The notes below the pieces were generated by a model. The model saw only the letters and a program-made list of their open reading frames with translations. It was not told the DNA's origin and did no database searches. Below are positions 6,291 to 31,041 of a DNA stretch of 37,250 nt, one piece after another. Source of the stretch: Candidatus Undinarchaeales archaeon (GTDB lineage Archaea > SpSt-1190 > JASMDC01); contig JASMDC010000029.1 in NCBI GenBank assembly GCA_030753015.1, positions 7,002-44,251 on the forward strand, in the 5' to 3' direction. Every line of letters starts with the position of its first letter. The first letter of the stretch is position 1. Both the position numbers and the translations under genes were made by a program.

Positions 6291-6291
6291 C

Positions 6292-9200: not shown

Positions 9201-12200
9201 CTTCAGGGCCGAGATGGCACCCCTTACAACCATGGCCCGCTCATTGTCACTAGGGGCCGGGTTCGGCGGATTCCTGCCTGCATCGGACGCCTCATGGGGA
9301 GAGCTTGTGAGGAGGCCCGCTCGAGGCGGGCTCAAGGGCGCTGACGCGGGCGGCGATGCTTCAAAGTGCCTCAAGCAGGAGGAGCAGAAGAACGCCTGCA
9401 ACAGCAACGGCCAAGAGGACAGCTTCAAGGAGAAGGTCAAGGAGCAGGGGAAGAACTCCGAGGACCTTGGCGTCAAGGGGTGCCAGACCAAGGGCGCCGG
9501 GCCAGTGTGCGATCAGGCGGACGACTGCACGAAGTGCGACGATTGTACCAAATGCGCCAAGGACGGGTACAAGAAATGCAAGCAGAAGGTAAATCCAGTC
9601 GAGGCGCCGAAGGGCGACGTTAAGGAGAAGGGCGCGTGCCCGAAGCACATCTGCTGCGGTCCCGGGTTCAACTGCCAGGACAGGAACAAGGTCACTCGTA
9701 CTAGATGCGGGACGAGGACGAAAAGGAAGGACCGGATCACCTGCCAGCTCGAGACGCATACATGCTCCTTCGTCACCCAGGCCACCCTGATCACCAAGAT
9801 GACGCAGAACTCCCTTCCCTCACCCGGCGGCGTGCAGGAATGCGCACAGAACGTGGCCGACCTCAAGGACGTGTGCACCGTTGAAGGCTCGGAGGCCCTC
9901 GGCGGGAACACTCTCGATCCCTGCGCCGTGAGCATGCAGCTGGGGATGATCATCGGCCAGCTCCAGGACCTGGTGACCCGCATGAGCGCGGCCTCGAACC
10001 AGCTCAAGAGCGTGTCATCCCGGCTCGGCGCTGAGCACTCCAAGGGCTTCTCGGACCGGAAGAACCAGGACATCAAGGGGAACATCGACGAGGTCGGTCG
10101 CGTGCTCGGTGGCGCGCAGGCCGACGTGACGTTCCAGAACCGCCTGGCCAACTTCGTGCGGCTCTTCCAGGACCAGAAGTTCAGGTCCGACATCACCGCG
10201 AACGCCAACTTCGCAGCCCCCAAGTTCACTATCGAACCGAAGGCGGAAGGGAGCCCGGCCGAGGGCATCTGGAAGGGTTACTGCAAGGATTACGAGCTGT
10301 GCGGCGCGTGCCAGGACCAGGACACGCCCGCCGGCTGCCTCGCTCCGACCTCGAGGTCGAGCTTCAATCGCATCAACGACGACTACCGCGGCCGGTGCGA
10401 CGCTCCCGAGTCCAAGGGCGCGGTCACGGAGCGCTCCTTCGACATCTGGCAGAACACCGCTGCCATCGACAACTTCGCCGGTATCAATCCCGAGGACGAC
10501 CTGTTCATCGACACGGCCGACTGCTACGGTTACGACGCGCTGCCCAAGGCCGAGCAGCAGCAGCCGCAGAACGATACGCAGGAGGAAAAGCCTCAGGAGG
10601 ATAAACCGAAGGAAGAGGAGAAGCCTGAGGAGGAGAAGCCTGAGGAAGAGGAGGTCCCCGAGGAGGAGGAACCGCTGGAGGAGGAGCCTCCCGAGGAAGA
10701 GGAGGAGTCGCATCCTGCCTGTACCGCTGCCTGTCGGACCTGTTTCAGTATCGACCGCTCCCACTGCCATGCACATCTGGGGATATGTGTGTGCGAGGCG
10801 GGAGGGAGATGGATGCTCACCTCACAGGCCTGCGAACCGGAGGTCATACCGGACGCCGAGGAGCTCTCCTGCTGTGAGAACCTGTTCGGCGTCGGGGCCG
10901 AGAGCTCGAACGTGGCGTCGGACGAACAGTGCGCTGGTCCGACCATCAAGGGGGTCACTGTGGACCGATGTGCCGATGGTGGCGGCCTGTGCTGCAAGTA
11001 CCGCTTCCAGGAGCTTCCCATCAAGAAGCACTGCGGGGAACTGGAACCCGAAGATATCGATGACTGCGACGACATGTGCCTGGCCATCTTCGACCGGGAT
11101 ACGGCCGACTGGTGCACTGAACGCTGTCCTGCCATCGAGCTGTCCTGCGAGCAAGAATGCCTGCGCCAGGGTACTGACCTCGCATGCCTCGAGGGGTGCG
11201 ATCCTCACTCCGCCCACTGCATGCGCATCTGCCTCGACGCCCACCCCGACAAGGACGAGTCGTGCATACGAGCGTGCAAGGCCGCAGCACCTGAAGGCGA
11301 GGTGACGGCCGAGCTTACCAGGCCTGGTACCAAGGGAGTTGCCGGTCAGGTGTTCGCGGACGGCGACGAGGTGGAGGTCGGTGGTGTTGTGAACAATACT
11401 GGAAAGGTGCCTCTCTTTGGTACCGGCCGCCTGTCCATTGTCACCCTGAGCGACTGCGCGTGCCAGGGCGAGGGCTGTGCCTGTGAGGAGAAGGTCACCC
11501 TCCTCAAGGAGTTCCCGGTCCACCTGGAACCGGGCGAGGGTCTGGATATACCCACGATGACGACCGCGCTCGAGGGCGCTGGCTCATCCGTGCAGACCTT
11601 GGTCGAGGTCGTGGACGACGAGGGCAACGTCCTATTCTCACAACGAAGCCCCATTGCCCATATCGTGGACGCGGGGGCTATCACGGTGCGGGACGCCTAC
11701 TTCGTGGGTCCCGGCGGGAGGACCGAGGAAGCGTACCCTGGCACCGACCTCTCGGGTGCCGTGACCCTCGAGTCCGTCGCCTATCCCGTGATGGTGGAGC
11801 TTTCGCTGATGAAGAGTGGCGCGATCCTCGATGGGTCTTCGGCCACCTATACGCTCACCGGTCCCACTGGTGAGAATCCCCTTACCTCCGGTGCGTTCAC
11901 GCCGACCGACGATGACGTCGGAGCGGTCATCCGCATCCGCGTCACGGTGCGGGACGCGGGTGGTGCGATACTCCTCGAACGCACCCTCGAGGAGCAGGGC
12001 ATGGACGCGGAGGTGTGCGGGAGCGAGATGACCGAGTGGTGTCTCACCCAGTTGGGTAAGGTGCGTCCGAGCTATCCGGCGGCCTATGCCGAGGTACGCA
12101 AGCTTAAGCTCGTGGTCAAGGACGCCGCCTTCATGAACTTCGACGGGCGGCGCATCGACACCGTGTACGGCTCGGCCGACATCGTGGCGGTCGTGTGGCT

Positions 12201-12639
12201 GCGGAACCTGCTCACGGTCCCCTTTTCCGGCAACATCGTGGTGAGGGCGGTGAAGGAGGATGGCACGACCACTGCTTCCCAGGAGGTCTGGGCCACGGAT
12301 GAGCGTATGCTGGACCGGGGTGACGAGTCGACGGTCCAGATGGAGGCCTTCGGCGTGGAGCCGCCGACGGTGTACGGCCTGTGGGTCACGGCCACCGACG
12401 ACACGGGGAGGGTATGGATCGATGAGGTCGTTAACATCGAGACGTTCCCCCACGCCCGTCTGACCGTGGCGTCACGTGATCCCTCGGGGGCCGGATCGTC
12501 CATCGACACGGTCATCGGGATAGGCTCGTGCCAGCTCAGGGTGACCTGTGAGGGCTGCTCGTCGCTGTGCGAGTTGCACGTGAACCCGCAGACATGCGCG
12601 CTCGAACCGTACAATTGTGATTGTGACTGTATATTCTAG
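6292..12639 (+). CDS. Family C giant secreted Cys-rich protein with Kazal-type domain, copy C1 (2115 aa)
   Basis: Signal peptide followed by [11 protein letters not shown]. Asp/Gly-rich beta repeats, a conserved helical core, the Kazal motif [26 protein letters not shown], CxxxC repeats and an Ig-like C-terminal region ending CDCDCIF*. Starts 1 nt after the A2 stop. Confidence 0.9.
   Translation: [2115 protein letters not shown]
8720..8830 (+). repeat. Coding tandem repeat, about 18-bp unit (QQPPGG)n, in the C1 linker
   Basis: Translates as [37 protein letters not shown]. Confidence 0.85.
10555..10710 (+). repeat. Glu/Pro/Lys low-complexity linker (EEKP)n in C1
   Basis: [63 protein letters not shown] is repeated. 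Confidence 0.8.
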
Positions 12640-12665
12640 GGGGTATTTATTTGGTGGGAGCTGTC

Positions 12666-15600
12666 ATGAGGCGGCGGAGGTGGTCAAGCGTAGCAGTGCT
12701 CGGCTACGCCGTGGGCCTCATCCTTCTCCTCGTACCGGCCCTCGGGCTGACGCAGTGCATCAACCGCGATTACGGCCCGCCATGCCAGGGCCTCGAGTGC
12801 TCCCCGGACCGTGCGGGAGAGCCGCCGAACGTCCACCTCGACCTCGACGGGACAACTACCATCTCGGACGGCGTGGTCACTACGACGGTCGGGCCCGACC
12901 GCACGGTGCGCGGGTTCGTTATCGATGGGGGCGACGTCCGCGTGGACGTGGACCACGATGGCGTGGAAACCGTCATACTGGCGACCGAGAGCGGCCATCG
13001 CATCCGTGTCCAGCGTGACGGGACCGTCAATATAGAGGACGGTTCCTACATGCTCACAGACGGCACCGCCATCCGCGTCGCAAACGGGCGTATGTCGCTC
13101 CTCGATCCCCAGACCTTCACCTCGAGGGATATGAGCGTCACAATCGGCAACAAGGGCATGGAGAAAGTCACGGTAGTGACCGATGAGGACAGAATGATCG
13201 ATGTCTCGCCGCATGGCGAGACCACTTTCGAGGACGGCACCTACCGGTTCATGGACGGCACCGAGGTGCTCATGGAAGGCGGATCCCCCCAGCTCCCCGT
13301 CGACATGGTGTTCACGACCGATGACGGTTCGATCACCCTCTCAATCGGGAACAACGGGCTAGGTGATGTACTGCTGTCGACTCCGGAGGGCGGAGAGGTG
13401 CGTATCGGCCCGGCCGGCGAACTCCAGGCCGCTGAGGGCAGCTACACGCTGGACGGTGACCGGCGCTGGACGCTCGGGGGCACCCTCCCAGAGGGCACGC
13501 TCTCCCTCGGTGACAAGGCATCGATGGAGATAGAGTACGACGTGGCCGACCACTTCGCCGGACGTGTTGAGACCCCCGCGGGCTCTCTGTCCTTCCAAGA
13601 TGGGAGGCCCACCGGTCGGCTCCAGCTCAGGCGCGAGAGCAAGGAGTACATCATGGAACTTGAGGAGGGCGACGGCACGCTCGCCTTCTCGAGCGACGAG
13701 GACCAGTTCTTCACGGACTTCGACCGACGCGGGATCATCGGGGGGACCATGGACATGGGCAAAGATACCCACCTTCGCATGGAGCGGGGACCGTTGGGGA
13801 GGACCACCGTGCTCTCTCTGGACATCGGCGACCAGCAGCTCACCTTCGATGCCACGCAGGGACCGAGCGGCGCCCTGGCCGTCAACAAGGACGGTAACTC
13901 GTATGCGCTCGACCTCTCCGACGGTATCGGCAGCGTCCAGCTCGCTGACGGGGCGTTCGACATGTCCTTCGATCCGAGCGGACTGGCCGACGCGTCCATC
14001 CAGATAAAGGACGATGTCACGTTAGACCTGGACCTTGACCGCGGTACCGGTACGTTCGATGCGGGCATCGGCTACAAGGGTGGCGACGTCCGGTTCAGTC
14101 CCGACAAGGGATTCTCCGGGAGCTTCTCCTTCGGAGAGGGGGACGGGAAGGTCGATGTGAACATGGGGAACGGTGGCATCGGCGTCTCTGGCGGAGGCGG
14201 CGGGGGCGGGGGCGGCCAGGGTTTCGACCTCGGGTTCGATCCCACCAAGGGATTCACGGGGGGTATGGGCTTCCCCGGCGGGAACGGGGACCTGCAGTTC
14301 GGTGCCGACGGCCTCACCGGCAATGTCAACACGCCCTTTGGTACGGCTAAGTTCGGCCCCCAGGGCATTGATATGGGGTACGGCGGAGTGTTCAACATGA
14401 ACGTCGCGCCCGACGGCGCCATGACACCCAGCCTGTCGACAGCGGCCGATGGGGCCGGTGAGTCGGCGACGAGCGGTAAGGCGACGAACATCTGCACGCC
14501 CCGCCTGCTCAAGGAGACCACCGTCAGCGGTGGTGGTGGATCCCCGCTCGACCCATCCCTCACGGACTGCGACCTGGCCCAGACAGCGACCAACCTGCGC
14601 GAGCACGCCGATAACCTGATCAACGACTTCACCCGGGCGATCGAGTACTACTCCGCCCTGGTCACCAATCTCGAGACCATGAAGGGCGGGTTCGACCAGT
14701 GGTGTTCTAACTGCATGCAATCGGTCTCTGGGTTCATGGCCAAGGGGTATGTACCCTGCGGCGGTAAGCTCGCCCCACCGCTCACTCCCGCCTCGATCGC
14801 AGCGGATCCCGGCTTCCGACCGACAATCTGTGCCGCGGCGGCGATGGAGAAGTGCCCGCCCGGGGCAGCGCAGACTGCCCAGTGCACAGCATCGTCCATG
14901 CCCAATCCCCTGGCCAAAGCGTGCCCGCTCTGCCTGACGCTCAACTGCGTGTACGGGCATGAGTGCAAGATCGGTTTCCCCAATCCTGCCGCCGCAGGCT
15001 CGTCAGCCCAGGGGGAAGCGGGCGGTCCCGCGGCGGCCCAAGGCGCGGGCGCCAAGGCCGCGTGTGGTGCCCAGGGGGCAGCGGGAGCTGGAGGTCTGGG
15101 CGACGCGCTCGGCGGTGTGGGCGACGCATTGGGCCAGGCCAAGAGCATGATGGACAAGGCCAAGAGCCTCATGCCCAAGGGCGGGCAGCCAGGCGGTGGG
15201 CAACCGGGAGGAGGTCAGCCAGGGGACGATCAACCGGGTGGCGGGCAGCCAGGCGGGGGGCAACCGGGAGGTGGCGAACAGGAGCAGCCACAACAGCAGG
15301 ATACGGCCGATAATCCCAATCCGACGTGCTCCTGCAGTGCCGAGGAGGCACCCATCTGCGGTACCGACGGACGCACCTACTTCAACAGCTGTCTGGCAGG
15401 GTGCTTCGGGATAGAGGTGGCGCACGAGGGTGAGTGCGAGACATGGTGCACAACAGACGCTGACTGCGTCCCTGACCGCTGCTGCACGACCGACACCCGG
15501 TGCACGTGCGTCAACAATCGATGTCGCTCGGGCATGCACGCGAGCCTGGCGCCCCTGAGGACGACCGCTCGGGCTACGCCGATGATAGCAGGATTCAGCG

Positions 15601-18600
15601 GTCTCTACAGCTCCATCGCCGATGAGCGGCGGACGCTCCCGGAACGGCCTGCCACGGCCGAGCTCCAGGGCGCAGGCCAGTGCATCCCCTTCCAGGGCAA
15701 GATGTCCTGCAATAGCGCCGGGGCACCGGACTCGTACGACGTCCCCCCTCCCCCCATCGGCAGCAACATGAACGACCTCGGCGTCACTGGGTGCACAACA
15801 AAGGGTGCTCCGCAGATGTGCACGGTCCCGGACTGCATCAAGTGCCAGACCGACTGCCTGGGCAAATGCAAGGAGCCTGCCGGTTGCCCCACATGCAAGG
15901 CGCTCATCAAGGCGATCGAGGCGCCCAGACGCAATCCGCCCATCCCCGGCGCTTGCACCAACCACAATTGCTGCGGTCCCCCCTTCAACTGTCAGGACAT
16001 GAACAAGCAGGTCGGCTGCCCGCCGTGCAAGTTCTGCGGTGTGCCCCCGATCCCATGCATGTGGCTGGTAGCAGGTTGTGTCCCCGAGACCCACGACTGC
16101 GCGGACGTCACACAGGCCACCCTGGTCACCAAGATGAAGCAGAACTCCATCCCGTCACCGGGAGGCGTTCGGGAGTGCGAGCAGAACGTGGCCGACCTCA
16201 AGGACGTGTGCACTGTCGAGGGTTCCCCTGAACTGGCCTCTGGTATGCTCGATCCCTGCGCTGTAGGTATGCAGCTCGGGGTCGTTATCGGTGAGCTGCA
16301 TGACCTCATCCAGCGAATGAGCCAGACGGTCGCCACTCTCAGCCAGGTCTCCGGACGGCTCGGGTTCGAGCATTCCCAGGGCTTCTCCGACCGCAAGGCG
16401 GCCACCATCGAGTCCAGCATCCAGGAGATCAGCTCCGTGCTGGAGGGCGCGAGTGCCACCGTGGACTTCCAGGTGCGCCTGGCAAACTTCGTACGGCTCG
16501 CCCAGAACCCGGAGTTCAACAAGGACATCATGTCCGATGCCAGCTTCCAGGCACCCAAGTTCGACATCCTGCCCAAGGCGGAGGGCTCGCCCGCACAGGG
16601 TATCTGGAGCGGCTACTGCACAAACTACGACCTCTGCGCTGCGTGCACGGACAAACCGACGCCCGCAGGATGCCTGGGCCGCACGTCCAAGACGAGCTAC
16701 AAACCCAACGACCTCGACTACCGTGGCAGGTGCATGTCCAAACAGAGCACATCGTCCATTACCGAGCGCTCCTTCGACATCTGGCAGAACAAGGGATCCG
16801 TCGACAACCTCGCCTCCATCGACGCCGAGGAGGATCTGTTCATCGACATGATGGACTGCTACAAGTACGACGCCCTGCCCCAGATGGAGCAACCGCAGCC
16901 GCCTGGTGGTCCGCCCGGTGGTGGACAGCCCGAGGAGGAACAGCCAGAGGACGAGATGCCACCCCCGGAGGAGGAGCCCGATGCCGGATGCGTGTCAATC
17001 TGCAAGGGATGCTACGGTGTCGACCGCACCCACTGCCACACCCATCTGGGCGTCTGCGTCTGTGAGGCCGGGAAACGGTGGTTCCTCACGTCCCGGTCGT
17101 GCGAGCCCGGCCGCGGGGTCAGTGATGACGACCTCGCCTGTTGCGAGCGGTTCCTCTCCGTAGGTGCCGAGGTCCCTGAGACGCCCTCCGGCGAGGTTTG
17201 CTCGGGTCCGGTCATCCGCGGCGTGACCGTGGACCGTTGTATCGAGGGTACGGGTCTCTGCTGCAAGTACCGGTTCCAGGAGATCTCTTTGGCCGGTATC
17301 TGCGATGTTCCCGACGATGTGGACGATACCGGTGACACCGGAGTGGACCGCTCGTGCGACGTCACGTGCAAGGCCATCCTCGACCGGGACACGGCCGAGT
17401 GGTGCGCCCGTCGCTGTCCTCAGATAGAGCTGACCTGCGAACAGGAATGCCTGCGCCGGCCCTCGTACACAGAGTGCCTGACCGACTGCTCGCCCGCTGC
17501 TGCGGACTGCATGACATCGTGCATGGACGAACCTGGAAGTAATGAGAAGGACTGCGTGAGCACCTGCACCTTAGAATCGCCGACGGGTGCGGCCGAGGCC
17601 TTCGTGGGGCGCCCCGGCGGTCCGTCCATCGCAGGTCAGGTGTTCGCCTCGGGAGACAGCGTGCAGGTGGGCGGTGTGGTCAACAATACGGGCGACGTCC
17701 CATTGGAGGGCACGGGCCGTCTATCCCTGGTCACCCTGACCGATTGCACCTGTGATGGCTCGGGCTGCACGTGCAGTGAGGAGGTCAAGCTCCTCAAGGA
17801 GTTCCCAGTACGGCTGGGACCGGGAGAGGACCTCGAGATAGCCTCAGTGTCCACGGTCCTCGAGCAGGCCGACACATCGGTCCAGGTCCTCGTCGAGGTC
17901 GTGGACGAGGACGGGAAGGTCCTACTGTCCCGCCGCAGCACCATCTCGCACGTTGTGTCCCCCGGTGCGATCGCCGTGCGGGACGCCTACTTCGTCGACC
18001 AGGGAGGGAGGACCGACAAGACCTACCCGGGCACCTCCATCGCAGGCGCTGTGACCATCGAGTCCATCGTCCATCCCATCACGGTAGTGGTCTCTTTGGT
18101 GAAGGGCGAGCTCCCGGTGATCGGAACATCGACGGCCTACACGCTCACCGGACCGACCGGGGACAAACCGCTCCTCTCGGGCACCTACACGGCCCTCGAT
18201 GGGGATGTCGGCAAGCTCCTCCGAATTCACGTGGTCGTCCGCGATTCGGGCGGCGAGGTCCTCCTAGACCGGATCCTCGATGAGCAAGGTGTGGACACGA
18301 AGATGTGTGGGAGCGAGATGACCGGGTGGTGCCTCATCCAGCTGGGGAAGGTGAGACCGAGCTACTCATCTGCCTTCGCGGAGGTGCGCAGGTTGCAGCT
18401 CGAAGTGCGGGACGCCGCCTTCATGAACTTCGGCGGACGCCGCATAGATACCATGTACGGTTCGGCCGATATCGTCGCCATCGTATGGCTGCGGAACCCT
18501 CTCACCGTTCAGTTCTCGGGACAGGTCGTCGTACGGGTGGTGAAGGAGGATGGTACCACCACTGCCAAAAAGGAGGTCTGGATGACCGATGGACGAGTCC

Positions 18601-18929
18601 TTGACCGCGGCGACGAGGAGACCGTCCAAGTGGAGGCATTCAGCATCGAGCCGCCCACCGTCTACAGCCTGTGGGTGACCGCTCGGGACAACGATGGCAG
18701 GACGTGGCTCGACGACGTCGTGAACGTAGGGGCATTCCCCCACGCGCGGCTCGCTGCTGCGACACGGGATCCCTCGGCACCCGGGACGTCCATCGACACG
18801 GTGATCGGGATAGGCTCGTGCCAGCTGAGGGTGTCCTGTGAGGGCTGCTCGCCACTATGCGAGCTGCATGTGAACCCGCGGACGTGCGTTCTCAAGCCTT
18901 ATAACTGCGATTGTGACTGTATCTACTAG
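12666..18929 (+). CDS. Family C giant secreted Cys-rich protein with Kazal-type domain, copy C2 (about 2087 aa)
   Basis: I prefer the ATG at 12666, after GGTGGGAG, to the ORF-track TTG at 12651. Signal peptide [27 protein letters not shown], then [13 protein letters not shown]. Collinear with C1; ends CDCDCIY*. Confidence 0.9.
   Translation: [2087 protein letters not shown]
15180..15276 (+). repeat. Coding tandem repeat, 15-bp unit (GGQPG)n with a 60-bp higher-order duplication, in the C2 linker
   Basis: gcgggcagccaggcgg(t/g)gggcaaccgggagg occurs at both 15181 and 15241. Confidence 0.85.
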
Positions 18930-18939
18930 GGGATATCGG

Positions 18940-21900
18940 ATGGCGACCTATATGACAGGAGCGGTGTCGGGGATGCGGGCCATATCGGCCTGTCTTCTCG
19001 TGCTCGTCCTGTTCGCCCCGTCCGCCCTCGGTATCCGCCAATGCGTCAACCGCGAATACGCTCCACCATGCCAGGGCGTCGATTGCGCTCCGGTAGAGCT
19101 GGGAACACCGCCGGACCTTACCTGGAACGATGACGGGTCGACCGTCATCACTACCGCCGACGAGGTCATCACTGCCAATGTGGGGGCCGACCGGGTCATG
19201 CGCGGTCTCATCATAGATGGTGGCGATATCCGTGTCGACGTCGGCGAGGACGGCGTACTGTCCCTGGACCTTGTGACCACCGACGGCCTGCGCATCACGG
19301 TGGAGCGGGACGGGAGCGTGAACCTGGAGGACGGCACCTACACCCTCACCGACAACACCACCATACGCGTTGTCAACGGGAAGATGCACCTCACTGAACC
19401 CCAGGTGTTCACGTCCCGCAACGTCAACGTCACCATCGGCAACAAGGGTATCGAGCAGGTCATCGTGGTCACTGACGAAGGTCATTTGGTACGCATCGCT
19501 CCAGACGGCGAGGTGACGTTCGACCATGGCTCCTACTGGCTGATGGACGGCACTGAGGTCTCCATCGAGGGGCGGAACGTCATCCTTCCGGAATCAAAGA
19601 CCTACTCATCGTCCGATGGTCTCGTCACCGTCACCATAGGTAACAACGGGTTCGAGGAACTGGTGCTCACACCCGCTGGTGGTGGCGAGGTGCGGATCAA
19701 CGCCGACGGCGACCTCAGTGTGGTGACGGGCGACTATATCATGGACGACGTGCCCTACTACTCCCCGGGCGGGAAGCTCCCCGAGGGTGAGCTGTCACTG
19801 GGCCCCGAGGCGAGCTTGGAGATCGAGTACGATGTGGCCGACCGGTTCGCGGGCACATTGCGTACACCGGCAGGAACCCTGGTCTTCAAGGACGGACGCC
19901 CCTCGGGGCGTCTCGAGCTCGTCACCAAGGATCGGACGGAGACGCTCACCTTCGAGTCGGGGACGGCCCTCGTGCATGCCCTCGAGGACAGACTGGCGGC
20001 CATCCTGGAACAAGCGCTCCACGAGACCGCCGATGAGATGGCGCAGCACGGAGGGTACACCCCTGAAAACGTCCCCGATCAGAACCTCGACGGTGTCCCC
20101 GTCCTCTTCAACAAGGGAAAGGTCACCAACATCCCCTCTTCGATTGCGATGGAACAGATGCTCGCCCAGGGAGTGAAGCGACGTGTCGAGGACAGGCTGG
20201 TCGAAGTGCGGCGCCAGCTCAGCGGGAGGGCTGATGCCGGAACACCCGAGGTGGAGGTGAACCTCGATACCAACGAGATCACCGCCATGCTTGTGCTCCC
20301 CCTGAACATCGACAGCGACGCCGAGCTCCCTTCGAGCATCCCCATACGGACGTCCGTCCCGCTCAGGCTCAAGCTCCTACGCGACCGGCTGGCCACGTAT
20401 CTGAGGGAGTACGCCGAGGGACGCAATATGGAAACTACGCTCCTCTCCCACCTAATAGAGGACGAGCGTATACCCTCGCCACCGGGCGCGATCTCCAAGA
20501 GCGTCGAGTGCGACCGCGGTGAAATGCTCGCTACCATCGGGGACATTGCACGCCCCGTAGGCGAGAACATCCACATCTCGGTGAACGAGGAGCTCGTGCG
20601 CGTGGACCGAACGGCCGCGTTCACCACAGACTCCGTCGGATGGGAGATGGTGCCTGTGGACAAAGGGGCCCAGCTCTCCCTCCTGGCCAACGAGGGCGTC
20701 AAGGACTATGAGAGCCGGGTGGTCATCGCACTAGTGCCCACTCCCGGGCCGGTCAGTGACACTTGCGTCGGCCGGTACTCCATCCAATACGACATCAGCT
20801 TCTCGGTTAGCGCCAGTGTCAGCGACAACTCGCCCGCGTTCCAGGTCAGGCGCGGCGATCCCGCCCGGCCCGAGAAGCATCCGCTCACCCTCCGGTTCGT
20901 CATGGTACCGCTCCTCCAGGGAGAGAACGTCAATGCTCTCGATGAGGAGGTGACCGCGCCAGAGGAGGCGGATGACCTGTGCACAGGTGCGTGCTCGGTC
21001 CACCTTACCGTCCCGGACTCCGGCTCGGGCACGGTGTGGATCGGTCCATGCAGCTTCGAGTACACCGGCGGCCGCATCGACCTGGAAGAGGCACCATGCG
21101 GTGACCACGAGCTCATCGTCGAGCCCGACGAGTTCGAACTTGATCGTCACCGGGAGCGGGTCTCCGTGCGTGATGTGCACCGGGCCGAGGTGACCCTCCC
21201 GCCACGCGACGCCGGTCCGGAGCGGCCGAGCGCGGTCACAGTCGACCTTGAGCGGGGGGACGGCCTAATCTCGTTCACCACGGGCGTGGGCAGCTTCACT
21301 ACCACCTTCGATGCCCGGGGCGTCATCGGCGGGACCGTGAGCGTAGGCGGTGGCGCGAACGTCCAAGTTGGACGGGGTCCATTGGGTAGGAACCTCGCCC
21401 AAACCCTGAACGTCGGTGGTCAACAGCTGTCCTTCGATGTGCAGAACGGCATCAGTGGGGCCCTCGGAGTCACTAAAGGCGGCAACTCGTACACGCTCGA
21501 TGTCCTCAGCGGTGTCGGGGCTGTCCAGATGACCACCGGGCCCTTCGACATGGCGTTCAACACCGCCGGTCTCGCCGATGCCTCAATCCAAGTGGCCGAT
21601 GACGTCAGCCTCAACATGAACCTCATCCCCGCCACGGGCAACTTCGGTGTGGGTATCGGGTTCGAGGGGGCCAACATCAACTTCGATCCAATGGCCGGCT
21701 TCTCCGGCGGGTTCGGCTTCGATGTCGGTGGCGGTCAGTTCGGTGTCAATCTCGGTGCTGGCGGTCTCGGTATCAACGCCAACGTGGGTGGTGAGAACTT
21801 CAACGTCGGGTTCAACGACGGCGCGTTCACCGGGGGTATCGCCTTCGGCGGCGGCAACGGTGGTATCAACATCGATCTGGGCGGCGCCGTCACCGGCTCG

Positions 21901-24900
21901 TTCAACACGCCCTTCGGTACAGCGAACATGGGCCTCACCGGCGATGGTGTCACGCTCGGCTTCGGTACCTTCGACATGAACATAGGTCTGGACGGTGCCT
22001 TCACGAGCAACCTGGCCGAGGGGCTGCAGAACCTGGGCCAGAGCGTCGTCGACAGCGTAAAGGGCCTCGTCGATGACGCACTATCGGGCAAGCTCACCAA
22101 CATCTGCGAACCACGCCTCCTGAGCGAAACGCAGGTCAGTGGCGCAGGTGGACCGTTCCTCGACCCCATGCTCACCGACTGCGATCTCGAGCGCACGGCC
22201 GACAACCTTCACGAACATATCGACAACATCATCGTCGATTACGAGAACGCGATCGAGTATCACACGACACTGGTGGAGAACCTCGAGTCCATCAGAGGAG
22301 GGTTCGAGGAATGGTGCGGGAACTGTGAATCGTCCATCAGCGGTTTCATGGCCAAGGGCTACCTGCCCTGTGGCGGTAAGCTCTCCATGAAGCCGACACC
22401 CAGCAAGGTCGCCTCCGATTCCGGGTTCAAACCCGAGATATGCGCCATGTCTGTGATGGCCCTGTGCGCACCCCAGAACCCGCTCACCGCGTGGTGCACC
22501 GCGGCCTCGTTCCCGAGCCCGCTCGGACTGGCCTGCCCGCTCTGCCTCACCCTCGACTGCGTGTACGGTTCACAGTGCATGATCGGGTTCCCCAACCCGA
22601 AGGCTGCCGGCGCCGCTGCTACCGCTGCAGGGACGGCGGCCAAGGGTGCGGGCAAGGCTATGATCGGTGGCGTCGCCGGGGCCGCCTCGTGCGCGGCACA
22701 GAGCGCCATGGGAGGTGCGGGTGGCGAACCGCCCCTGCCACAGGAGGAGCCCCCGCTCGAAGAGATGATCCCGCGGGAGGATTACGAGGAGCTGACGCCA
22801 GAGGTGCTACAGCAGCTGAAGGACCAGCCGCGCAACGGTACCTGCGTATGCGACGGCTCCGGTGGCCAGGTATGCGGTACGGACGGTCGCACCTACATCA
22901 GCCGATGCGTCGCTGAGTGCCTCGATATCCGGGTCGCCCGGGACGGCGCCTGTGAGGAATATTGCACCTCGGACGCTGACTGCGTCCCTGACGCCTGCTG
23001 CGACACCGTGACGGCCTGCTCGTGCGTGGACAACCGCTGTGTCGGGCCCGAGGACTCGGCCCCGGACCCGTGGACACCGCCGACGACCACGACCACCGCG
23101 GCGGAGGATGCAGTTGACGAGTGGAACCCGTCCGAGATCACCGTGGACCCGGTGGAGGCAGGGGTCACCGTGAACGAGGGCAATGCAGGGATCCCTATGG
23201 AGGTCTGGGAAGAGGCCATCCCCGACATGGGCGGCGGAGGCGGAGGGGACGATGATGGCGGAGGAGGCGGAGACGGCCCCGGCGTCAGTGTCACCGTGAA
23301 CATACCCATTGGCGAGATCGGCAACCTCGGTCAGCTCGGCGGTGGGCTGGGGAAGCTCGGCGAGGGCCTCGGGAAGATCGGCGATGGGCTCAACGCCATC
23401 ACCAAGCCCGTCCAGGACCTTGCCCAAGGAGTACAGAACGCGGTCGATACAGTGACGAAGCCTATCACGGACGCCATGCAGGGTGTACAGAACACAATCG
23501 ACCAGGGCATCCAGAACATGGGCGATGCTATCACCGGCGGGACCGGGGACCTCTCGAGCATGACCGGCGAGGCGGGAGGGGAGGCCGGCGGCGAGGCGGG
23601 CCAGCAGGGCGATGAGGATCCGGGTGTCTGCCTGCCGTTCAAGGGGAAGATGGCCTGCAACAGCATGGGCGCTCCGGCCGTGTACGACGTACCGCCACCG
23701 CCCATCGGCGCGCCGGTCATGGACCTGGGCGTCAAGGGCTGCATCACCCAGGGCGCGCCCATCACTTGCACGATGCCCGACTGCATCGCTTGCGAGACGG
23801 AGTGCCTCCCCATGTGCGGGGACGAGATAGGGTGCCCGGTATGCACAGGGCTCATGGAGCTCACCGAGATACCCAAGCGCGTGCCGCCCATCCCCGGCGC
23901 TTGCACCAACAATCACTGCTGCGGTACGCCGTTCTCCTGCGTCGACTACAACATGCCCGACCTCTGCGAGATCCCTTGTGGCTGGTGCGGTCCGGTCCCC
24001 TGTATCTGGAAAGCCGCTACGTGCTTCCCAGAGTTGCACAACTGCGCCGATGTCACCCAGGCGACCCTGGTAACCAAGAAGAAGCTCAACTCCATCCCGT
24101 CGCCCGGCGGTGTCGCAGAGTGCTCACAGAACGTGGCCGACCTAAAGGACGTGTGCACCGTTGAAGGTTCCAAGGAGCTCAAGTCGGGGATCCTGGACCC
24201 GTGCGAGATCGGCGACAAGCTGGACGTGGTCATCGAGGAGCTGCACGACCTAATCGACCGCATGAGCCAGGCCGTCGAGGAGCTCTATGACGTGTCGGGC
24301 CAGCTGGACTACGAGCACTCGCAGGGCTTCACCGACCGGCGCTCGGCCACTATCAAGGAGACGATCAAGCGCATCACCGATATCCTGGAGGGCGCCAAGG
24401 GCGACAAGGACTTCCAGATACGTCTGGCAAACTTCGTACGGTTGTTCCAGAACGATGACTTCCGGGGCGACATCTCCGAGAACGAGCAGCTCACCGCTGC
24501 CATGTTCGGTATACTGCCCTACGCCGAGGGAGCGCCGGGTATGGCGATGTGGATGGGCTACTGCATGGACTTCCAGCTCTGCGGCGGGTGCTCTGGAGGG
24601 CCCGTCCAGGCTGGATGCCTCGGCCCCACGTCCATCGGGAGCTACCTGCCCAACATCCTCGACTTCAGGGGCCGGTGCATGTCGGTGCCCGCGGCCACCG
24701 TGGTCAACGAGCGCAGCTTCGACATGTGGGGCGACACGAGCGCTCTGGACAACTTCGCCAACATCGATGCCGAGGAGGACCTGTTCATCGACACCCTGAA
24801 GTGCTACAAATACGACTCCGAGAGCACCGGATGGGAGAACCGGACGAGCGGCCAGGGCATACCGTACGACGAGGGCATTGAAACACCCGGCGGGGAGGTA

Positions 24901-26835
24901 ACACCGCCGGAATGCGTCGCCGCCTGCAGCGAGTGCTACGGGATCGACCAAGCGCATTGCCACGCTCACCTCGGCCTCTGCGTGTGCGAGGCCGGCGATA
25001 GGGACATCCTCACGTCCCAGTCCTGCGAACCCAGCGCCCGCGTGAGCGAGGACATGCTGGGATGCTGCGAGCGTCTCCTGTCTGTGGGCGCCGAGAGCAT
25101 CGACAGCCCCGGCGGTGAGCTATGCACGGGACCTATCCTCAGGGGTATCACGGTCGACCTCTGCTCGGACGGTTCCGGCCTGTGCTGCAAGCACCGGTTC
25201 AACGAGGTCCCCCTCGAGGGCAACTGCGAGGCCGTGGAGGCGGCAGGGGTCGGGACGTGCGAGGACATGTGCATGGACGTCTTCGACCGGGAGACCGCCG
25301 ACTGGTGCGCCGAGCGGTGCCCGGCGATCGACATCTCCTGCGAGGCGGCTTGCCTCGGGACCGAGGTGGACACAGAGTGCCTGAGCGAGTGTGTCCCGCA
25401 GCGGCCCCTCTCGTGCATGCAGGACTGTATAGCTGGCCACGAGGGCCAGGAGGCCGACTGCGTCCGGGCGTGCAAGGCCGTCTCGCCGCGAGCGGAAGTG
25501 GACGGGTACGTTGGTCGTTCGAAGGCCCCCGACGTGCCGGGACAGGTGTTCACCGCGGGGGACGCGGTCGTCGCCGGCGCAGTAGTGAACAACACCGGCG
25601 AGGTCCCCCTCATCGGCACCGCCCGTCTCTCCCTGGTCACCCTATCGGACTGCTCGTGCTCTGGCAGTGACTGCGCCTGTGAAGAGGATGTGCAGCTGGT
25701 CAGAGAGATACCGGTACGTCTCGGTCCGGGCCGGTCCATGACGATCCCGGCGCTACCTGTGGACGTCGGCCGCGAGGACGTGTCGGTCCAGACGCTCGTC
25801 GAGATCCTGGACGAGAACGGGAACGTAATCGTTTCCCAACGCGGCCCCATCTCTCATGTGGTGTCGTCAGGCGCCGTGACCGTTCGGGACGCCTACTTCG
25901 TCACATCGGGCGGGAGGAGCACCGAGGTGTACCCCGGCGCCCCCATCCATGGTGCCGTGACCATCGAGTCGAAGGCCTACCCCGTGACCCTCGATATCTC
26001 GCTGGTCATAGGTAGCACAACCGCCGCCGATTCGGTGGCGACGTTCACGCTCGCAGGCCCCACTCTCGACCGCGCCGTCGCCAGCGACTCCTACACAGCA
26101 CAGGACGCTGACCTAGGCAAGGTGCTCCGCATCCACATCAAGGTGACCGATGTCGCCGGCGCCGTGCTCCTCGAAGAGACCCTCGCCGAGCAGGGCATGA
26201 CCACTGAGACCTGCACCGCCAAAATGACTGAGTACTGCCTATCCAACCTCGGGAATGTTAAGCCGAGCTATCCCCTCGCTCATGCCGAGGTGCGACCGTT
26301 GAGCCTCACGGTCCGGGACGCGGCCTTCATGAGCCTGGGTGCTCGGCCCATCGCCGCCATTTTCGGGAGGGCGGACGTGGTGGCCATCGCCTGGGTCCGG
26401 AACATGCTGTCCGTCCCCTTCGACGGACGCATCGAGGTCAAGGTCGTGCGGGAGGGCGGCGCCGCTATCGCCACCAAGGAGACCTGGGCTACCGGGGACA
26501 GGGTGCTCGAACGTGGTGACGAGGTCGCCGTCCAGGTCGAGGCCTTCGGTGTGGAACCGGGCAACGCCTACTCCCTGCACGTGTTCGCCGAGGACAACGG
26601 GGGCAGGGTCTGGCTGGACGAGGTGCTCACGGACACGGTCTTCCCCAATGCGTGTCTGAGCGTCGAGGCACGTGATCCGTCCGCACAGGGTGGCGATATC
26701 AACACCGTGATCACCATCGGCACCTGCCGGCTCAGGGTCGAGTGCACGGGGTGTTCGTCCCTGTGCGAGCTCCATGTCGATCCGTCCGACTGCTCGCTAC
26801 TGCCGAAGAACTGCGACTGCGAGTGTGTGTACTGA
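18940..26835 (+). CDS. Family C giant secreted Cys-rich protein, copy C3 (about 2631 aa), with an inserted family A ectodomain
   Basis: ATG at 18940 (alternatives 18952 and 18973). Signal peptide ...MRAISACLLVLVLFAPSALG, then IRQCVNREYAPPC. Collinear with C1/C2 apart from inserts at about 19940-21230 and 23050-23620; ends CDCECVY*. Confidence 0.9.
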   Translation: MATYMTGAVSGMRAISACLLVLVLFAPSALGIRQCVNREYAPPCQGVDCAPVELGTPPDLTWNDDGSTVITTADEVITANVGADRVMRGLIIDGGDIRVDVGEDGVLSLDLVTTDGLRITVERDGSVNLEDGTYTLTDNTTIRVVNGKMHLTEPQVFTSRNVNVTIGNKGIEQVIVVTDEGHLVRIAPDGEVTFDHGSYWLMDGTEVSIEGRNVILPESKTYSSSDGLVTVTIGNNGFEELVLTPAGGGEVRINADGDLSVVTGDYIMDDVPYYSPGGKLPEGELSLGPEASLEIEYDVADRFAGTLRTPAGTLVFKDGRPSGRLELVTKDRTETLTFESGTALVHALEDRLAAILEQALHETADEMAQHGGYTPENVPDQNLDGVPVLFNKGKVTNIPSSIAMEQMLAQGVKRRVEDRLVEVRRQLSGRADAGTPEVEVNLDTNEITAMLVLPLNIDSDAELPSSIPIRTSVPLRLKLLRDRLATYLREYAEGRNMETTLLSHLIEDERIPSPPGAISKSVECDRGEMLATIGDIARPVGENIHISVNEELVRVDRTAAFTTDSVGWEMVPVDKGAQLSLLANEGVKDYESRVVIALVPTPGPVSDTCVGRYSIQYDISFSVSASVSDNSPAFQVRRGDPARPEKHPLTLRFVMVPLLQGENVNALDEEVTAPEEADDLCTGACSVHLTVPDSGSGTVWIGPCSFEYTGGRIDLEEAPCGDHELIVEPDEFELDRHRERVSVRDVHRAEVTLPPRDAGPERPSAVTVDLERGDGLISFTTGVGSFTTTFDARGVIGGTVSVGGGANVQVGRGPLGRNLAQTLNVGGQQLSFDVQNGISGALGVTKGGNSYTLDVLSGVGAVQMTTGPFDMAFNTAGLADASIQVADDVSLNMNLIPATGNFGVGIGFEGANINFDPMAGFSGGFGFDVGGGQFGVNLGAGGLGINANVGGENFNVGFNDGAFTGGIAFGGGNGGINIDLGGAVTGSFNTPFGTANMGLTGDGVTLGFGTFDMNIGLDGAFTSNLAEGLQNLGQSVVDSVKGLVDDALSGKLTNICEPRLLSETQVSGAGGPFLDPMLTDCDLERTADNLHEHIDNIIVDYENAIEYHTTLVENLESIRGGFEEWCGNCESSISGFMAKGYLPCGGKLSMKPTPSKVASDSGFKPEICAMSVMALCAPQNPLTAWCTAASFPSPLGLACPLCLTLDCVYGSQCMIGFPNPKAAGAAATAAGTAAKGAGKAMIGGVAGAASCAAQSAMGGAGGEPPLPQEEPPLEEMIPREDYEELTPEVLQQLKDQPRNGTCVCDGSGGQVCGTDGRTYISRCVAECLDIRVARDGACEEYCTSDADCVPDACCDTVTACSCVDNRCVGPEDSAPDPWTPPTTTTTAAEDAVDEWNPSEITVDPVEAGVTVNEGNAGIPMEVWEEAIPDMGGGGGGDDDGGGGGDGPGVSVTVNIPIGEIGNLGQLGGGLGKLGEGLGKIGDGLNAITKPVQDLAQGVQNAVDTVTKPITDAMQGVQNTIDQGIQNMGDAITGGTGDLSSMTGEAGGEAGGEAGQQGDEDPGVCLPFKGKMACNSMGAPAVYDVPPPPIGAPVMDLGVKGCITQGAPITCTMPDCIACETECLPMCGDEIGCPVCTGLMELTEIPKRVPPIPGACTNNHCCGTPFSCVDYNMPDLCEIPCGWCGPVPCIWKAATCFPELHNCADVTQATLVTKKKLNSIPSPGGVAECSQNVADLKDVCTVEGSKELKSGILDPCEIGDKLDVVIEELHDLIDRMSQAVEELYDVSGQLDYEHSQGFTDRRSATIKETIKRITDILEGAKGDKDFQIRLANFVRLFQNDDFRGDISENEQLTAAMFGILPYAEGAPGMAMWMGYCMDFQLCGGCSGGPVQAGCLGPTSIGSYLPNILDFRGRCMSVPAATVVNERSFDMWGDTSALDNFANIDAEEDLFIDTLKCYKYDSESTGWENRTSGQGIPYDEGIETPGGEVTPPECVAACSECYGIDQAHCHAHLGLCVCEAGDRDILTSQSCEPSARVSEDMLGCCERLLSVGAESIDSPGGELCTGPILRGITVDLCSDGSGLCCKHRFNEVPLEGNCEAVEAAGVGTCEDMCMDVFDRETADWCAERCPAIDISCEAACLGTEVDTECLSECVPQRPLSCMQDCIAGHEGQEADCVRACKAVSPRAEVDGYVGRSKAPDVPGQVFTAGDAVVAGAVVNNTGEVPLIGTARLSLVTLSDCSCSGSDCACEEDVQLVREIPVRLGPGRSMTIPALPVDVGREDVSVQTLVEILDENGNVIVSQRGPISHVVSSGAVTVRDAYFVTSGGRSTEVYPGAPIHGAVTIESKAYPVTLDISLVIGSTTAADSVATFTLAGPTLDRAVASDSYTAQDADLGKVLRIHIKVTDVAGAVLLEETLAEQGMTTETCTAKMTEYCLSNLGNVKPSYPLAHAEVRPLSLTVRDAAFMSLGARPIAAIFGRADVVAIAWVRNMLSVPFDGRIEVKVVREGGAAIATKETWATGDRVLERGDEVAVQVEAFGVEPGNAYSLHVFAEDNGGRVWLDEVLTDTVFPNACLSVEARDPSAQGGDINTVITIGTCRLRVECTGCSSLCELHVDPSDCSLLPKNCDCECVY

Positions 26836-30985: not shown

Positions 30986-31007
30986 GGAACGGGCTTTCCT
31001 AATCAAC

Positions 31008-31016
31008 TTATATAAA
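31008..31016. promoter_or_regulatory. Palindromic TATA box (TTATATAA) shared by the divergent wHTH gene and B2
   Basis: About 23 bp from GTG 30985 (-) and 27 bp from ATG 31042 (+), in a 56-bp spacer. Confidence 0.65.
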
Positions 31017-31041
31017 TCTTGTCGGGCGTTCGATTGTTCAC

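What the first reader, a model, noticed from the sequence alone, without database searches (positions are those of the whole stretch)
19940..21230. Family A pilin-like ectodomain inserted in frame inside giant C3 (Rosetta-stone fusion)
C1 reads GRLDLRRDGREFTLDLDRGDG and C2 reads GRLQLRRESKEYIMELEEGDG. In C3 about 430 aa separate GRLELVTKDRT from AVTVDLERGDG. The insert aligns with A2: ETADEMAQHGGYTPENVP vs ETAYEMATHGGFIAENVP, VPVLFNKGKVTNIPS vs VPYLFYRGKIVNVPS, IPIRTSVPLRLKLLRD vs IPVSTTVPLRIKRLRD, DERIPSPPG vs DDRISNPPG, and DDLCTGACS vs DDMCQGSCS. It lacks the class III signal, the TM helix and the last beta-sandwich. It is diverged yet intact, so it looks old and selected and not like an assembly chimera. 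This is the strongest evidence that A and C act together, and it may let C3 dock on the structure as a cap or tip.
Basis: seen in the sequence. Interest (0 to 1): 0.85.

Follow-up and report, generated by a model that had tools for sequence, protein, structure and literature searches.

The report
Pilin-like head domain inside giant protein
A 2,640-residue secreted archaeal surface protein carries, spliced into one of its loops, an intact copy of the outer part of a neighbouring pilin-like protein, which physically ties together two uncharacterised surface-protein families of an unusual marine archaeon.

Summary
C3 (window 18913-26835, 2,640 aa) has about 439 residues (aa 337-775, nt 19921-21237) where its paralogs C1 and C2 have 7. 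C3 aa 348-764 align to A2 aa 48-468 at 39% identity, E 9e-102.

The insert is the family A ectodomain. It lacks the class III-type signal, the hydrophobic helix and the last beta-sandwich.

It is not an assembly artefact:
- A second species of the genus (G001) has the same fusion in a syntenic 2,638-aa gene.
- Single contigs in runs from two studies span both junctions.

It looks functional:
- dN/dS is 0.24.
- 45 of 53 conserved family columns are kept.
- pLDDT is about 85-98 over the insert.

Family A has no Pfam or NCBIfam match. The genome holds 20 free copies, and 19 abut an Ig-chain protein B.

My reading is that a pilin head without its polymerising helix was grafted into a Sec-secreted giant. 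It probably tethers C3 to the A/B assembly. A-B binding has only weak in-silico support, 0.34 against a best control of 0.01. The "cap or tip" idea is untested. This is a new variant of known modular-pilin and domain-fusion themes, of moderate interest.

The parts
18913..26835 (+). C3: 2,640-aa Cys-rich giant with an N-terminal Sec-type signal; it hosts the insert
   Evidence: One open frame. Colinear with C1 and C2 on both sides of the insert. The G001 ortholog has 2,638 aa and is 88% identical.
18913..19920 (+). C3 aa 1-336: signal plus beta-strand-rich N-terminal domain, found only in C1-C3
   Evidence: 54-55% identical to C1 and C2. Only 3 ORFs in the genome match it. The model shows short regular strands at pLDDT about 50-80.
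19921..21237 (+). The insert: C3 aa 337-775, a family A ectodomain without the hydrophobic helix and without the last beta-sandwich
   Evidence: pLDDT about 85-98 over C3 aa 346-760, with the same order of helices and strands as A2.
19948..20046 (+). Retained outer part of the N-terminal helix (C3 aa 346-378), aligned to about A2 aa 46-78
   Evidence: Helix 306-338 of the fragment model equals C3 346-378. The A2 helix runs aa 7-78. Alignment.
21238..22122 (+). C3 aa 776-1070: Gly-rich beta region that resumes colinearity with C1 and C2
   Evidence: Alignment. Regular strands 734-851 of the fragment model.
24913..26835 (+). C3 C-terminal conserved region of about 640 aa, shared by 21 giants of the genome
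4482..6290 (+). A2: 602-aa free family A protein, closest to the insert by BLASTP identity
   Evidence: Model mean pLDDT 86.6.
1..1524 (+). A1: free family A protein, cut at the window start (X residues, presumably N bases, lie just upstream in the contig)
   Evidence: The full-length G001 ortholog has 616 aa.
33840..35714 (+). A3: free family A protein; the listed ORF starts at 33648, and the likely start is near the RGQ motif
1762..4488 (+). B1: 908-aa secreted Ig-chain protein; its stop overlaps the A2 start
   Evidence: Complex test with A2.
31042..33846 (+). B2: 934-aa B paralog directly upstream of A3
6292..12639 (+). C1: 2,115-aa paralog of C3 without the insert
   Evidence: Kazal_2 match at 24.2 bits against a cut-off of 22.8.
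12651..18929 (+). C2: 2,092-aa paralog of C3 without the insert

Best explanation
Shown:
- C3 is a Sec-secreted, Cys-rich giant.
- In a turn between its N-terminal beta domain and its Gly-rich beta region it acquired a complete, separately folding head of family A.
- Family A proteins are about 600 aa. They have a prepilin-type (class III-like) signal, a long N-terminal helix, an alpha/beta-plus-beta-sandwich head and a terminal beta-sandwich.
- The graft keeps the head and the outer third of the helix. It drops the membrane/polymerisation half of the helix and the terminal domain. It resembles the N-terminally truncated pilins that crystallographers make (recalled).
- The fusion predates the split of two species and is kept by purifying selection.

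Inferred:
- The head supplies in cis the binding surface that free A proteins use. Its most likely partner is B, whose gene abuts an A gene in 19 of 20 cases.
- C3 would thereby be tethered to the same A/B surface assembly without a separate A adaptor.
- My odds: real selected domain insertion about 0.9; docking to the A/B assembly about 0.35. The confidence given for this field is for the statement as a whole.
For: Homology and boundaries:
-.
- The insert ends at the A2 domain border, where strands 459-465 are followed by a new domain from aa 470.

Independent occurrence:
- The G001 ortholog is 82% identical over the 467-aa query (81% over C3 aa 335-775) inside a 2,651-aa open frame, in full synteny A1-B1-A2-C1-C2-C3.
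- Single contigs in runs X5 and X6 (two studies) cover 19600-21600 with 0 differences. In X11 two contigs each bridge one junction.

Constraint:
- dN/dS is 0.24 for the insert, against 0.09-0.16 for the rest of C3 and 0.10 for A2.
- All 14 invariant columns of the 19-row alignment are kept, 5 of them Cys.
- 45 of 53 columns at least 75% conserved in 17 free A proteins are kept.

Fold:
- pLDDT is about 85-98 across the insert, with low-confidence linkers on both sides.

Pilin-like nature of A:
- The [KR]GQ motif plus a hydrophobic stretch occurs in 15 of 19 own-genome copies.
- [KR][GA]Q plus a hydrophobic stretch occurs in 8 of 8 distant relatives examined.
- The A2 model has a helix at aa 7-78.
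- The genome has 4 Peptidase_A24 matches and 5 T2SSE matches over the curated cut-offs.
- In one locus a T2SSE ATPase and a polytopic membrane protein directly precede B and A.

Link between A, B and C:
- 19 of 20 free A genes abut a B gene. 8 of those loci have an abutting C-type giant.

A-B contact:
- Weak support. Scores 0.34, 0.08 and 0.34 against a best control of 0.01. Partner pLDDT at least 78. Agreement between runs at least 0% of contacts.
- In the tool's calibration the mark was reached by 58 of 80 solved complexes and 2 of 110 mismatches. At scores of 0.60 or under it was reached by 7 of those 80 and by both mismatches.
Against: - No A-C or insert-B contact was tested. Only the cognate A2-B1 pair was tested, with B cut to aa 349-908, and the tool rates such a pass as more often wrong than right unless the guess was likely beforehand.
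- The insert is the fastest-evolving part of C3 (81% identity and dN/dS 0.24).
- Its most variable stretches are aa 510-539 and 600-629, at 53% and 57% identity. The first includes a segment that is well conserved in free A proteins. This could mean a changed or lost partner.
- It sits on a long branch (1.18 changes per column) with no supported sister among the paralogs.
- Only 1 of 21 C-type giants has such a head, so the giants in general do not need one.
- No Pfam or NCBIfam pilin model matches A.
- No model coordinates were available, so whether the two ends of the head lie close together was not checked.
Confidence: 0.55

Rival explanations
1. Shuffled ligand-binding module. The A head is an adhesive or ligand-binding domain aimed at an external target such as another cell, a particle or a polymer. 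C3 simply gained one more such module. No A-C or C3-B contact is implied.
For: - Family A relatives are modular. P0097 (1,102 aa) carries the same N-terminal region plus a VWA domain, E 1.3e-17.
- The giants are mosaics: Kazal-like, Gly-rich and beta-sandwich parts.
- The insert evolves faster than its surroundings.
- Only 1 of 21 giants has it.
Against: - The tight A-B gene coupling in 19 of 20 cases and the weak A2-B1 pass point to an internal partner for the head.
- No ligand-binding family is recognisable in the head.
Confidence: 0.3
2. Integrated decoy. Pilus-like proteins are common virus receptors (recalled). A soluble copy of the head on a giant surface protein could soak up viruses or other binders that target free A.
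For: - About 20 diverged A/B cassettes in one genome look like a family under diversifying pressure.
- The insert evolves faster than free A2.
Against: - No virus or binder is known.
- dN/dS 0.24 indicates purifying selection, not diversifying selection.
- Nothing in these data bears on it directly.
Confidence: 0.07
3. Tolerated relic. An accidental recombination placed an A fragment in a permissive loop, and it is carried along without function.
For: - It is the least conserved segment of C3.
- It is a single occurrence.
Against: - 439 codons are open in two species at dS 0.48 with dN/dS 0.24.
- 45 of 53 conserved columns and all 5 invariant Cys are kept.
- The boundaries coincide with domain borders.
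- The fold is predicted with confidence.
Confidence: 0.03
4. Artefact: an assembly chimera, or separate genes misread as one.
For: - In run X9 two contigs end and begin at 19931 and 19933, about 10 nt from the 5' junction.
Against: - The same fusion is present in G001, a different species with a 605-kb contig.
- Single contigs in X5 and X6 span both junctions with 0 differences, and X11 bridges each junction. The tool warns that these runs may include the source sample.
- There is no stop codon, and no start or signal at the insert borders.
Confidence: 0.01

Closest known systems
Modular type IV pilins (Streptococcus sanguinis PilB with a vWA module, PilC with a lectin module); PMC8179133 and PMC9934059, seen only as search listings and abstract starts
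   Same: A pilin module and a large extra module share one polypeptide on a surface structure. Family A itself has this build: a pilin-like N-terminus plus large beta-rich domains. One relative adds a VWA domain.
   Different: In modular pilins the extra module is grafted onto a complete pilin, which still polymerises. Here the pilin head, without the polymerising helix, is grafted into a non-pilin, Sec-secreted giant.
Large minor pilins CofB and TcpB, and the non-pilin tip adhesin PilY1 (recalled; PMC13190605 seen only as a listing)
   Same: A large pilin-like protein, or a large non-pilin protein, that works with pilins at a filament and recruits secreted partners. This is the logic proposed here for A with B and C.
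   Different: No sequence or fold match to them was found. PDB fold matches are weak, with query TM 0.13-0.18. No filament has been shown for A.
SlaA/SlaB two-component S-layer of Sulfolobus (PDB 8qox_B was a Foldseek hit: E 2.1e-6, query TM 0.12, 209 columns)
   Same: A large secreted beta-rich protein and a smaller protein with a membrane helix, a stalk helix and beta-sandwich domains are encoded side by side. The smaller one anchors the larger one.
   Different: SlaB is anchored by a C-terminal helix (recalled). A has an N-terminal helix with a prepilin-type motif. The genome has about 20 diverged pairs. The fold match is weak.
Rosetta-stone (domain-fusion) inference of protein partnership (recalled; PMC529437 seen only as a listing)
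   Same: Two families are encoded separately next to each other and are fused in one protein.
   Different: This is a domain insertion into a loop of a paralog, not an end-to-end fusion of two whole proteins. Only one fusion is known, so partnership is suggested rather than shown.
Archaeal non-filament proteins with class III signals, such as the sugar-binding proteins of the Sulfolobus bindosome (recalled)
   Same: Large extracellular proteins carry a prepilin-type signal and are held at the membrane by the N-terminal helix.
   Different: No substrate-binding family is recognisable in A.

Membership tests
Family A (unnamed 600-aa family of this genus): is the insert a member? | Significant sequence similarity across the whole ectodomain | tested here: met
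   E 9e-102 to A2. Profile E 1.2e-157 over positions 33-464 of 597.
Family A: is the insert a member? | Family-invariant residues, including the Cys pattern | tested here: met
   The 14 invariant columns of the 19-row alignment include both insert rows. 45 of 53 columns at least 75% conserved in free A proteins are kept.
Family A: is the insert a member? | Same predicted fold | tested here: met
   Same order of helices and strands as the A2 model, with pLDDT about 85-98. No coordinates were available for a superposition.
Family A: is the insert a member? | N-terminal [KR]GQ motif with hydrophobic helix, and C-terminal beta-sandwich ending in Cys | tested here: not met
   Both are absent from the insert. 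It is a partial member: the head only.
Archaeal type IV pilin-like proteins (class III signal): is family A a member? | Short charged leader, [KR]-[GA] before the cleavage point, then about 20 hydrophobic residues | tested here: met
   [KR]GQ plus a hydrophobic stretch in 15 of 19 own-genome N-termini. One further copy has RAQ and 3 deviate or were not visible. 8 of 8 distant relatives have [KR][GA]Q. The motif definition is recalled.
Archaeal type IV pilin-like proteins: is family A a member? | Long N-terminal alpha-helix leading into a globular head | tested here: met
   Helix aa 7-78 in the A2 model, which has mean pLDDT 86.6.
Archaeal type IV pilin-like proteins: is family A a member? | Prepilin peptidase, assembly ATPase and platform protein in the genome or locus | tested here: inconclusive
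   4 Peptidase_A24 and 5 T2SSE matches over the cut-offs in the genome. Only 1 of 19 A/B loci has an adjacent T2SSE ATPase. The polytopic protein next to it matches no Pfam family.
Archaeal type IV pilin-like proteins: is family A a member? | Match to a curated pilin model | tested here: not met
   No Pfam or NCBIfam family for A2. A3 had no Pfam family either.
Archaeal type IV pilin-like proteins: is family A a member? | Cleavage by the peptidase and assembly into a filament | not testable with these tools
   Needs N-terminal sequencing or mass spectrometry, and microscopy.
Rosetta-stone fusion | The components occur as separate genes and also fused in one frame | tested here: met
   20 free A genes and 20 insert-free C-type giants, against the single fused C3. 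The same fusion is in G001.
Rosetta-stone fusion | The separate components physically interact | not tested
   No A-C pair was folded. Only A2 with B1 was tested, with weak support.

The most novel reading that the evidence does not exclude
A new way to load cargo onto a type IV filament-like or pilin-anchored surface assembly. The adhesin does not dock on minor pilins by non-covalent contacts. Instead, a giant Sec-secreted protein carries a built-in pilin head that lacks its polymerising helix. This head takes the place of a free A subunit next to B (or next to other A heads). The giant thereby becomes part of the assembly, which is one of about 20 exchangeable A/B(/C) surface cassettes in a 3.85-Mb relative of the tiny-genome Undinarchaeota.
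Probability: 0.2. Interest if true: 0.75.

Novelty: new variant of a known kind. Interest (0 to 1): 0.5.

Why it matters
Families A, B and C have no curated annotation, yet they fill a sizeable share of this genome. There are about 20 cassettes, and my crude ORF call gives 108 ORFs of 1,000 aa or more.

The fusion is the only covalent link between A and the giants. It therefore gives a concrete, testable handle on how these surface proteins are put together. The insert can be expressed alone as a soluble head, and its partner can then be sought.

The fusion also shows the reverse of the modular-pilin architecture: a head placed in a non-pilin protein. I found no report of this in the searches.

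The host lineage is itself notable. It is a marine archaeon of 3.6-3.9 Mb and 63% GC, placed in the same class as genomes of 0.6-1.2 Mb.

Tried and rejected
Searches for the same fusion elsewhere
- The search for homologous proteins with C3 aa 337-775, among proteins of 1,452-4,620 aa, found none. It did not recover C3 itself or its G001 ortholog, so the blank is uninformative.
- The insert alone with 'longer' lengths (770-2,195 aa) found none. This range excludes C3's own length.
- Two scans of metagenome contigs, with the junction-spanning alignment A7 and the C1-C3 alignment A2, gave 213 and 135 pattern matches. None was confirmed by tblastn.
- Among the best 150 hits of the representative-library profile search, the longest protein matching the head region was P0097 at 1,102 aa. 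The giants listed had their best stretch in profile positions about 485-581, the terminal beta-sandwich. C3 itself was not listed.

Fold comparison
- Foldseek against the PDB gave only weak multi-domain beta-sandwich matches for A2, with query TM 0.13-0.18.
- It gave nothing useful for the C3 fragment, with query TM under 0.1.
- The ESM Atlas pointed to unnamed 600-720-aa archaeal clusters for A2 (Aenigmatarchaeota, Nanobdellota and Woesearchaeota labels). It gave nothing above 0.76 for B1.

Expression
- No RNA holder was listed for the stretch.

Donor and polarity
- The A tree gives the insert no supported sister.
- The tree of the C-terminal domain leaves C1, C2, C3 and the C30 giant as a polytomy.
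- Insertion against loss therefore rests on parsimony alone.

Other
- The hami and Altiarchaeum literature search was a wrong guess about the organism and was dropped.
They may bear on whether family A loci were catalogued.
Full report
**1. What is in the window**

The plus strand carries the following genes:

| Gene | Window coordinates | Size |
|---|---|---|
| A1 | 1-1524 (cut at the window start) | - |
| B1 | 1762-4488 | 908 aa |
| A2 | 4482-6290 | 602 aa |
| C1 | 6292-12639 | 2,115 aa |
| C2 | 12651-18929 | 2,092 aa |
| C3 | 18913-26835 | 2,640 aa |
| B2 | 31042-33846 | 934 aa |
| A3 | about 33840-35714 | - |

- Between C3 and B2 lie housekeeping genes. These include an F420-dependent methylene-H4MPT dehydrogenase and a formylmethanofuran:H4MPT formyltransferase, both over their NCBIfam cut-offs.
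- G+C is 0.555-0.661 in 2-kb windows, and 0.63-0.66 over the C3 gene.

**2.

- Aligning the N-terminal thirds of C1, C2, C3 and their G001 orthologs shows colinearity up to GRL(D/Q/E)L and again from (T/I/V)(L/M/V)(D/E)L..GDG.
- Between these two points C1 and C2 have 7 residues (RRDGREF, RRESKEY). C3 has aa 337-775.
- C3 aa 348-764 align to A2 aa 48-468 with 166 of 422 identities and only 6 gaps, E 9e-102.
- A1 gives 35% identity, E 4e-50. A3 gives 29%, E 2e-40.

**3. It is one real gene**

- A search of 41 genomes (the window's own plus 40 relatives) found the family in 2: the window's genome G000 and one other species of the same genus, G001.
- G001 has the same gene order A1-B1-A2-C1-C2-C3. 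Its 2,638-aa C3 carries the same insert at the same place.
- Laying public contigs on 19600-21600 gave the following:
  - One contig in each of runs X5 and X6, from two studies, covers the whole stretch with no difference.
  - In X11 two contigs each bridge one junction.
  - In X9 two contigs meet at 19931/19933, next to the 5' junction. I note this but cannot explain it.
  - The tool warns that these near-identical runs may include the source sample. G001 is therefore the stronger independent witness.

**4. It is kept by selection and should fold**

Between G000 and G001:

| Region | aa identity | dN/dS | dS |
|---|---|---|---|
| Insert | 81% | 0.24 | 0.48 |
| Other five segments of C3 | - | 0.09-0.16 | - |
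| A2 | - | 0.10 | - |
| A3 | - | 0.18 | - |

- The 19-row family alignment has 14 invariant columns, 5 of them Cys. Both insert rows are among the 19 rows.
- Of 53 columns at least 75% conserved in 17 free A proteins, the insert keeps 45.
- An AlphaFold2 model of C3 aa 41-900 used a 27-row alignment in which C1 and C2 were supplied as separate N- and C-terminal pieces. An earlier alignment, A3, had misplaced them and was discarded.
- That model gives pLDDT about 85-98 over C3 aa 346-760, with the same succession of helices and strands as the A2 model.
- The stretches on either side (C3 about 299-348 and 766-796) are below pLDDT 50.
- The insert therefore looks like an autonomous domain on linkers. 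"In a beta-hairpin" is plausible from the alignment but the model does not resolve it.
- The insert ends exactly where the last beta-sandwich of A2 would begin.

**5. What family A is**

- A2, A3, B1, B2 and C3 match no Pfam family above the cut-off. A2, B1 and C3 match no NCBIfam model either. C1 has one Kazal_2 match.
- G000 holds 20 free A ORFs, 21 B ORFs and 21 giants that share the C-terminal region of about 640 aa.
- 19 of the 20 free A genes abut or overlap a B gene: 14 as B then A, and 5 as A then B. A1 lies 238 nt upstream of B1.
- 8 of these loci also have an abutting giant. Only C3 contains an A head.
- Free A N-termini read [KR]GQ followed by about 20 hydrophobic residues in 15 of 19 cases.
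- The A2 model has a helix at aa 7-78 followed by alpha/beta and beta-sandwich domains.
- A profile search of 1.84 billion representatives gave 38 hits at E up to 1e-30, mostly about 600 aa. It also gave weaker 600-1,100-aa hits over the N-terminal two thirds.
- All 8 of those weaker hits that I read begin with [KR][GA]Q plus a hydrophobic stretch. One of them adds a VWA domain.
- The ESM Atlas places similar unnamed clusters in DPANN-type archaea.
- The genome has 4 Peptidase_A24 and 5 T2SSE matches over the cut-offs.
- In one locus (contig C26) a T2SSE ATPase and a 726-aa polytopic membrane protein directly precede B and A. That membrane protein matches no family.
- Family A therefore looks like a large, modular protein family with a prepilin-type signal. 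Cleavage and filament formation are not shown.

**6. How the insert most likely works**

- The graft starts about 36 residues after the putative cleavage point. It keeps the outer part of the helix, which in known pilins packs on the head (recalled). It omits the hydrophobic part that holds pilins in the membrane and in the filament core (recalled).
- It therefore cannot polymerise the usual way, and it can act only through its head.
- A and B genes are coupled almost without exception, so I tested the A2 head (aa 41-470) against B1 aa 349-908. The verdict was weak support:
  - Scores were 0.34, 0.08 and 0.34, against a best control of 0.01.
  - Partner pLDDT was at least 78, and agreement between runs was at least 0% of contacts.
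  - In the tool's calibration the mark was reached by 58 of 80 solved complexes and by 2 of 110 mismatches.
  - At scores of 0.60 or under it was reached by only 7 of those 80 and by both mismatches.
  - My own alignments were used, so these counts hold only roughly.
- I read this as modest support for the head being a B-binding module. It is only indirect support for C3 binding B.
- The alternative, that the head is an outward-facing adhesive module shuffled into C3, remains nearly as likely.

**7. Age and origin**

- In the A tree the two insert orthologs form their own lineage. The stem is 1.18 changes per column, inside the main A clade, with no supported sister. A2 groups with the paralog on contig C30 at 100/99 support, and that group excludes the insert.
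- The C-terminal regions of C1, C2, C3 and the C30 giant form a polytomy.
- The insertion is therefore older than the G000/G001 split. It did not come from the present A2 lineage, unless fast change after insertion hides that origin. Insertion against loss is decided only by parsimony.

**8. The organism**

- The record title shown by the tool for G001 calls it a Candidatus Undinarchaeota archaeon MAG.
- The other 15 genomes of the class held here are 0.6-1.2 Mb, and none has family A.
- Passages of PMC7414124 give an average of 0.66 Mbp, and the table rows shown list about 38-42% G+C, for that phylum.
- G000 is 3.85 Mb, with the window at 0.555-0.661 G+C in 2-kb windows.
- PMC13705601 (abstract start and two passages read) says type IV filament systems are rare in DPANN archaea. 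I found no mention of this family there. Its supplements were not opened.

**9. Verdict**

- The insertion is real, old, intact and under selection.
- The pilin-like label is reasonable.
- The Rosetta-stone inference is plausible but unproven.
- The cap-or-tip idea is untested and runs into the missing polymerisation helix.

Noticed in passing
whole genome G000 and G001: The genome is 3.85 Mb (G001 about 3.6 Mb, largest contig 605 kb) and the window has about 63% G+C. It is placed in the same class as 15 genomes of 0.6-1.2 Mb. G001's record title says Candidatus Undinarchaeota, a phylum published as averaging 0.66 Mbp, with about 38-42% G+C in the table rows I saw.
   Followed up: partly
whole genome G000: My crude ORF call gives 108 ORFs of at least 1,000 aa, 30 of at least 2,000 aa, and a longest ORF of 8,347 aa, among 2,875 kept ORFs.
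   Followed up: no
window 27560-29271: F420-dependent methylene-H4MPT dehydrogenase (327 bits, cut-off 297) and formylmethanofuran:H4MPT formyltransferase (299 bits, cut-off 297) lie side by side. These are H4MPT C1-pathway genes in a DPANN-affiliated archaeon.
   Followed up: no
window 30122-31159 (-): A 345-aa protein has one membrane helix and a C-terminal winged-helix region (weak ArsR/Lrs14-type matches). It lies next to B2 on the opposite strand. Paralogs of 332-345 aa lie at 4 A/B loci. They may be cassette-specific regulators.
   Followed up: partly
L030 (G000:C26:53000-66000), 2566-7054: A T2SSE-family ATPase (767 aa) and a 726-aa polytopic membrane protein with no family match directly precede a B-A pair. 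This is the only A/B locus with an assembly ATPase next to it.
   Followed up: partly
window 6288-6290, 4486-4488, 12616-12639, and alignments A1 and A6: A and B proteins nearly all end in a Cys within the last one or two residues (for example ...EDC and ...ARC). The giants end in CDCDCIF or CDCECVY. C908 of B is at least 90% conserved. This could mean intermolecular disulfides or metal sites.
   Followed up: no
window 8989-9078 (C1 aa 900-929): There is a Kazal-type inhibitor-like domain in C1 (24.2 bits, cut-off 22.8). C2 and C3 have similar Cys patterns at the matching place.
   Followed up: no
window 19931-19933: In run X9 two public contigs end and begin here, about 10 nt from the 5' junction of the insert. 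Three other runs bridge it. The cause is unknown.
   Followed up: no
just upstream of window position 1 (G000:C39 about 6999-7001): The contig translation shows X residues (presumably N bases) inside A1, so A1 is interrupted there in this assembly. The G001 ortholog is whole at 616 aa.
   Followed up: partly
G000 contigs C22 and C26 (L017-L019): A divergent A subfamily of 690-790 aa has an extra middle segment and the reversed gene order, A then B.
   Followed up: no
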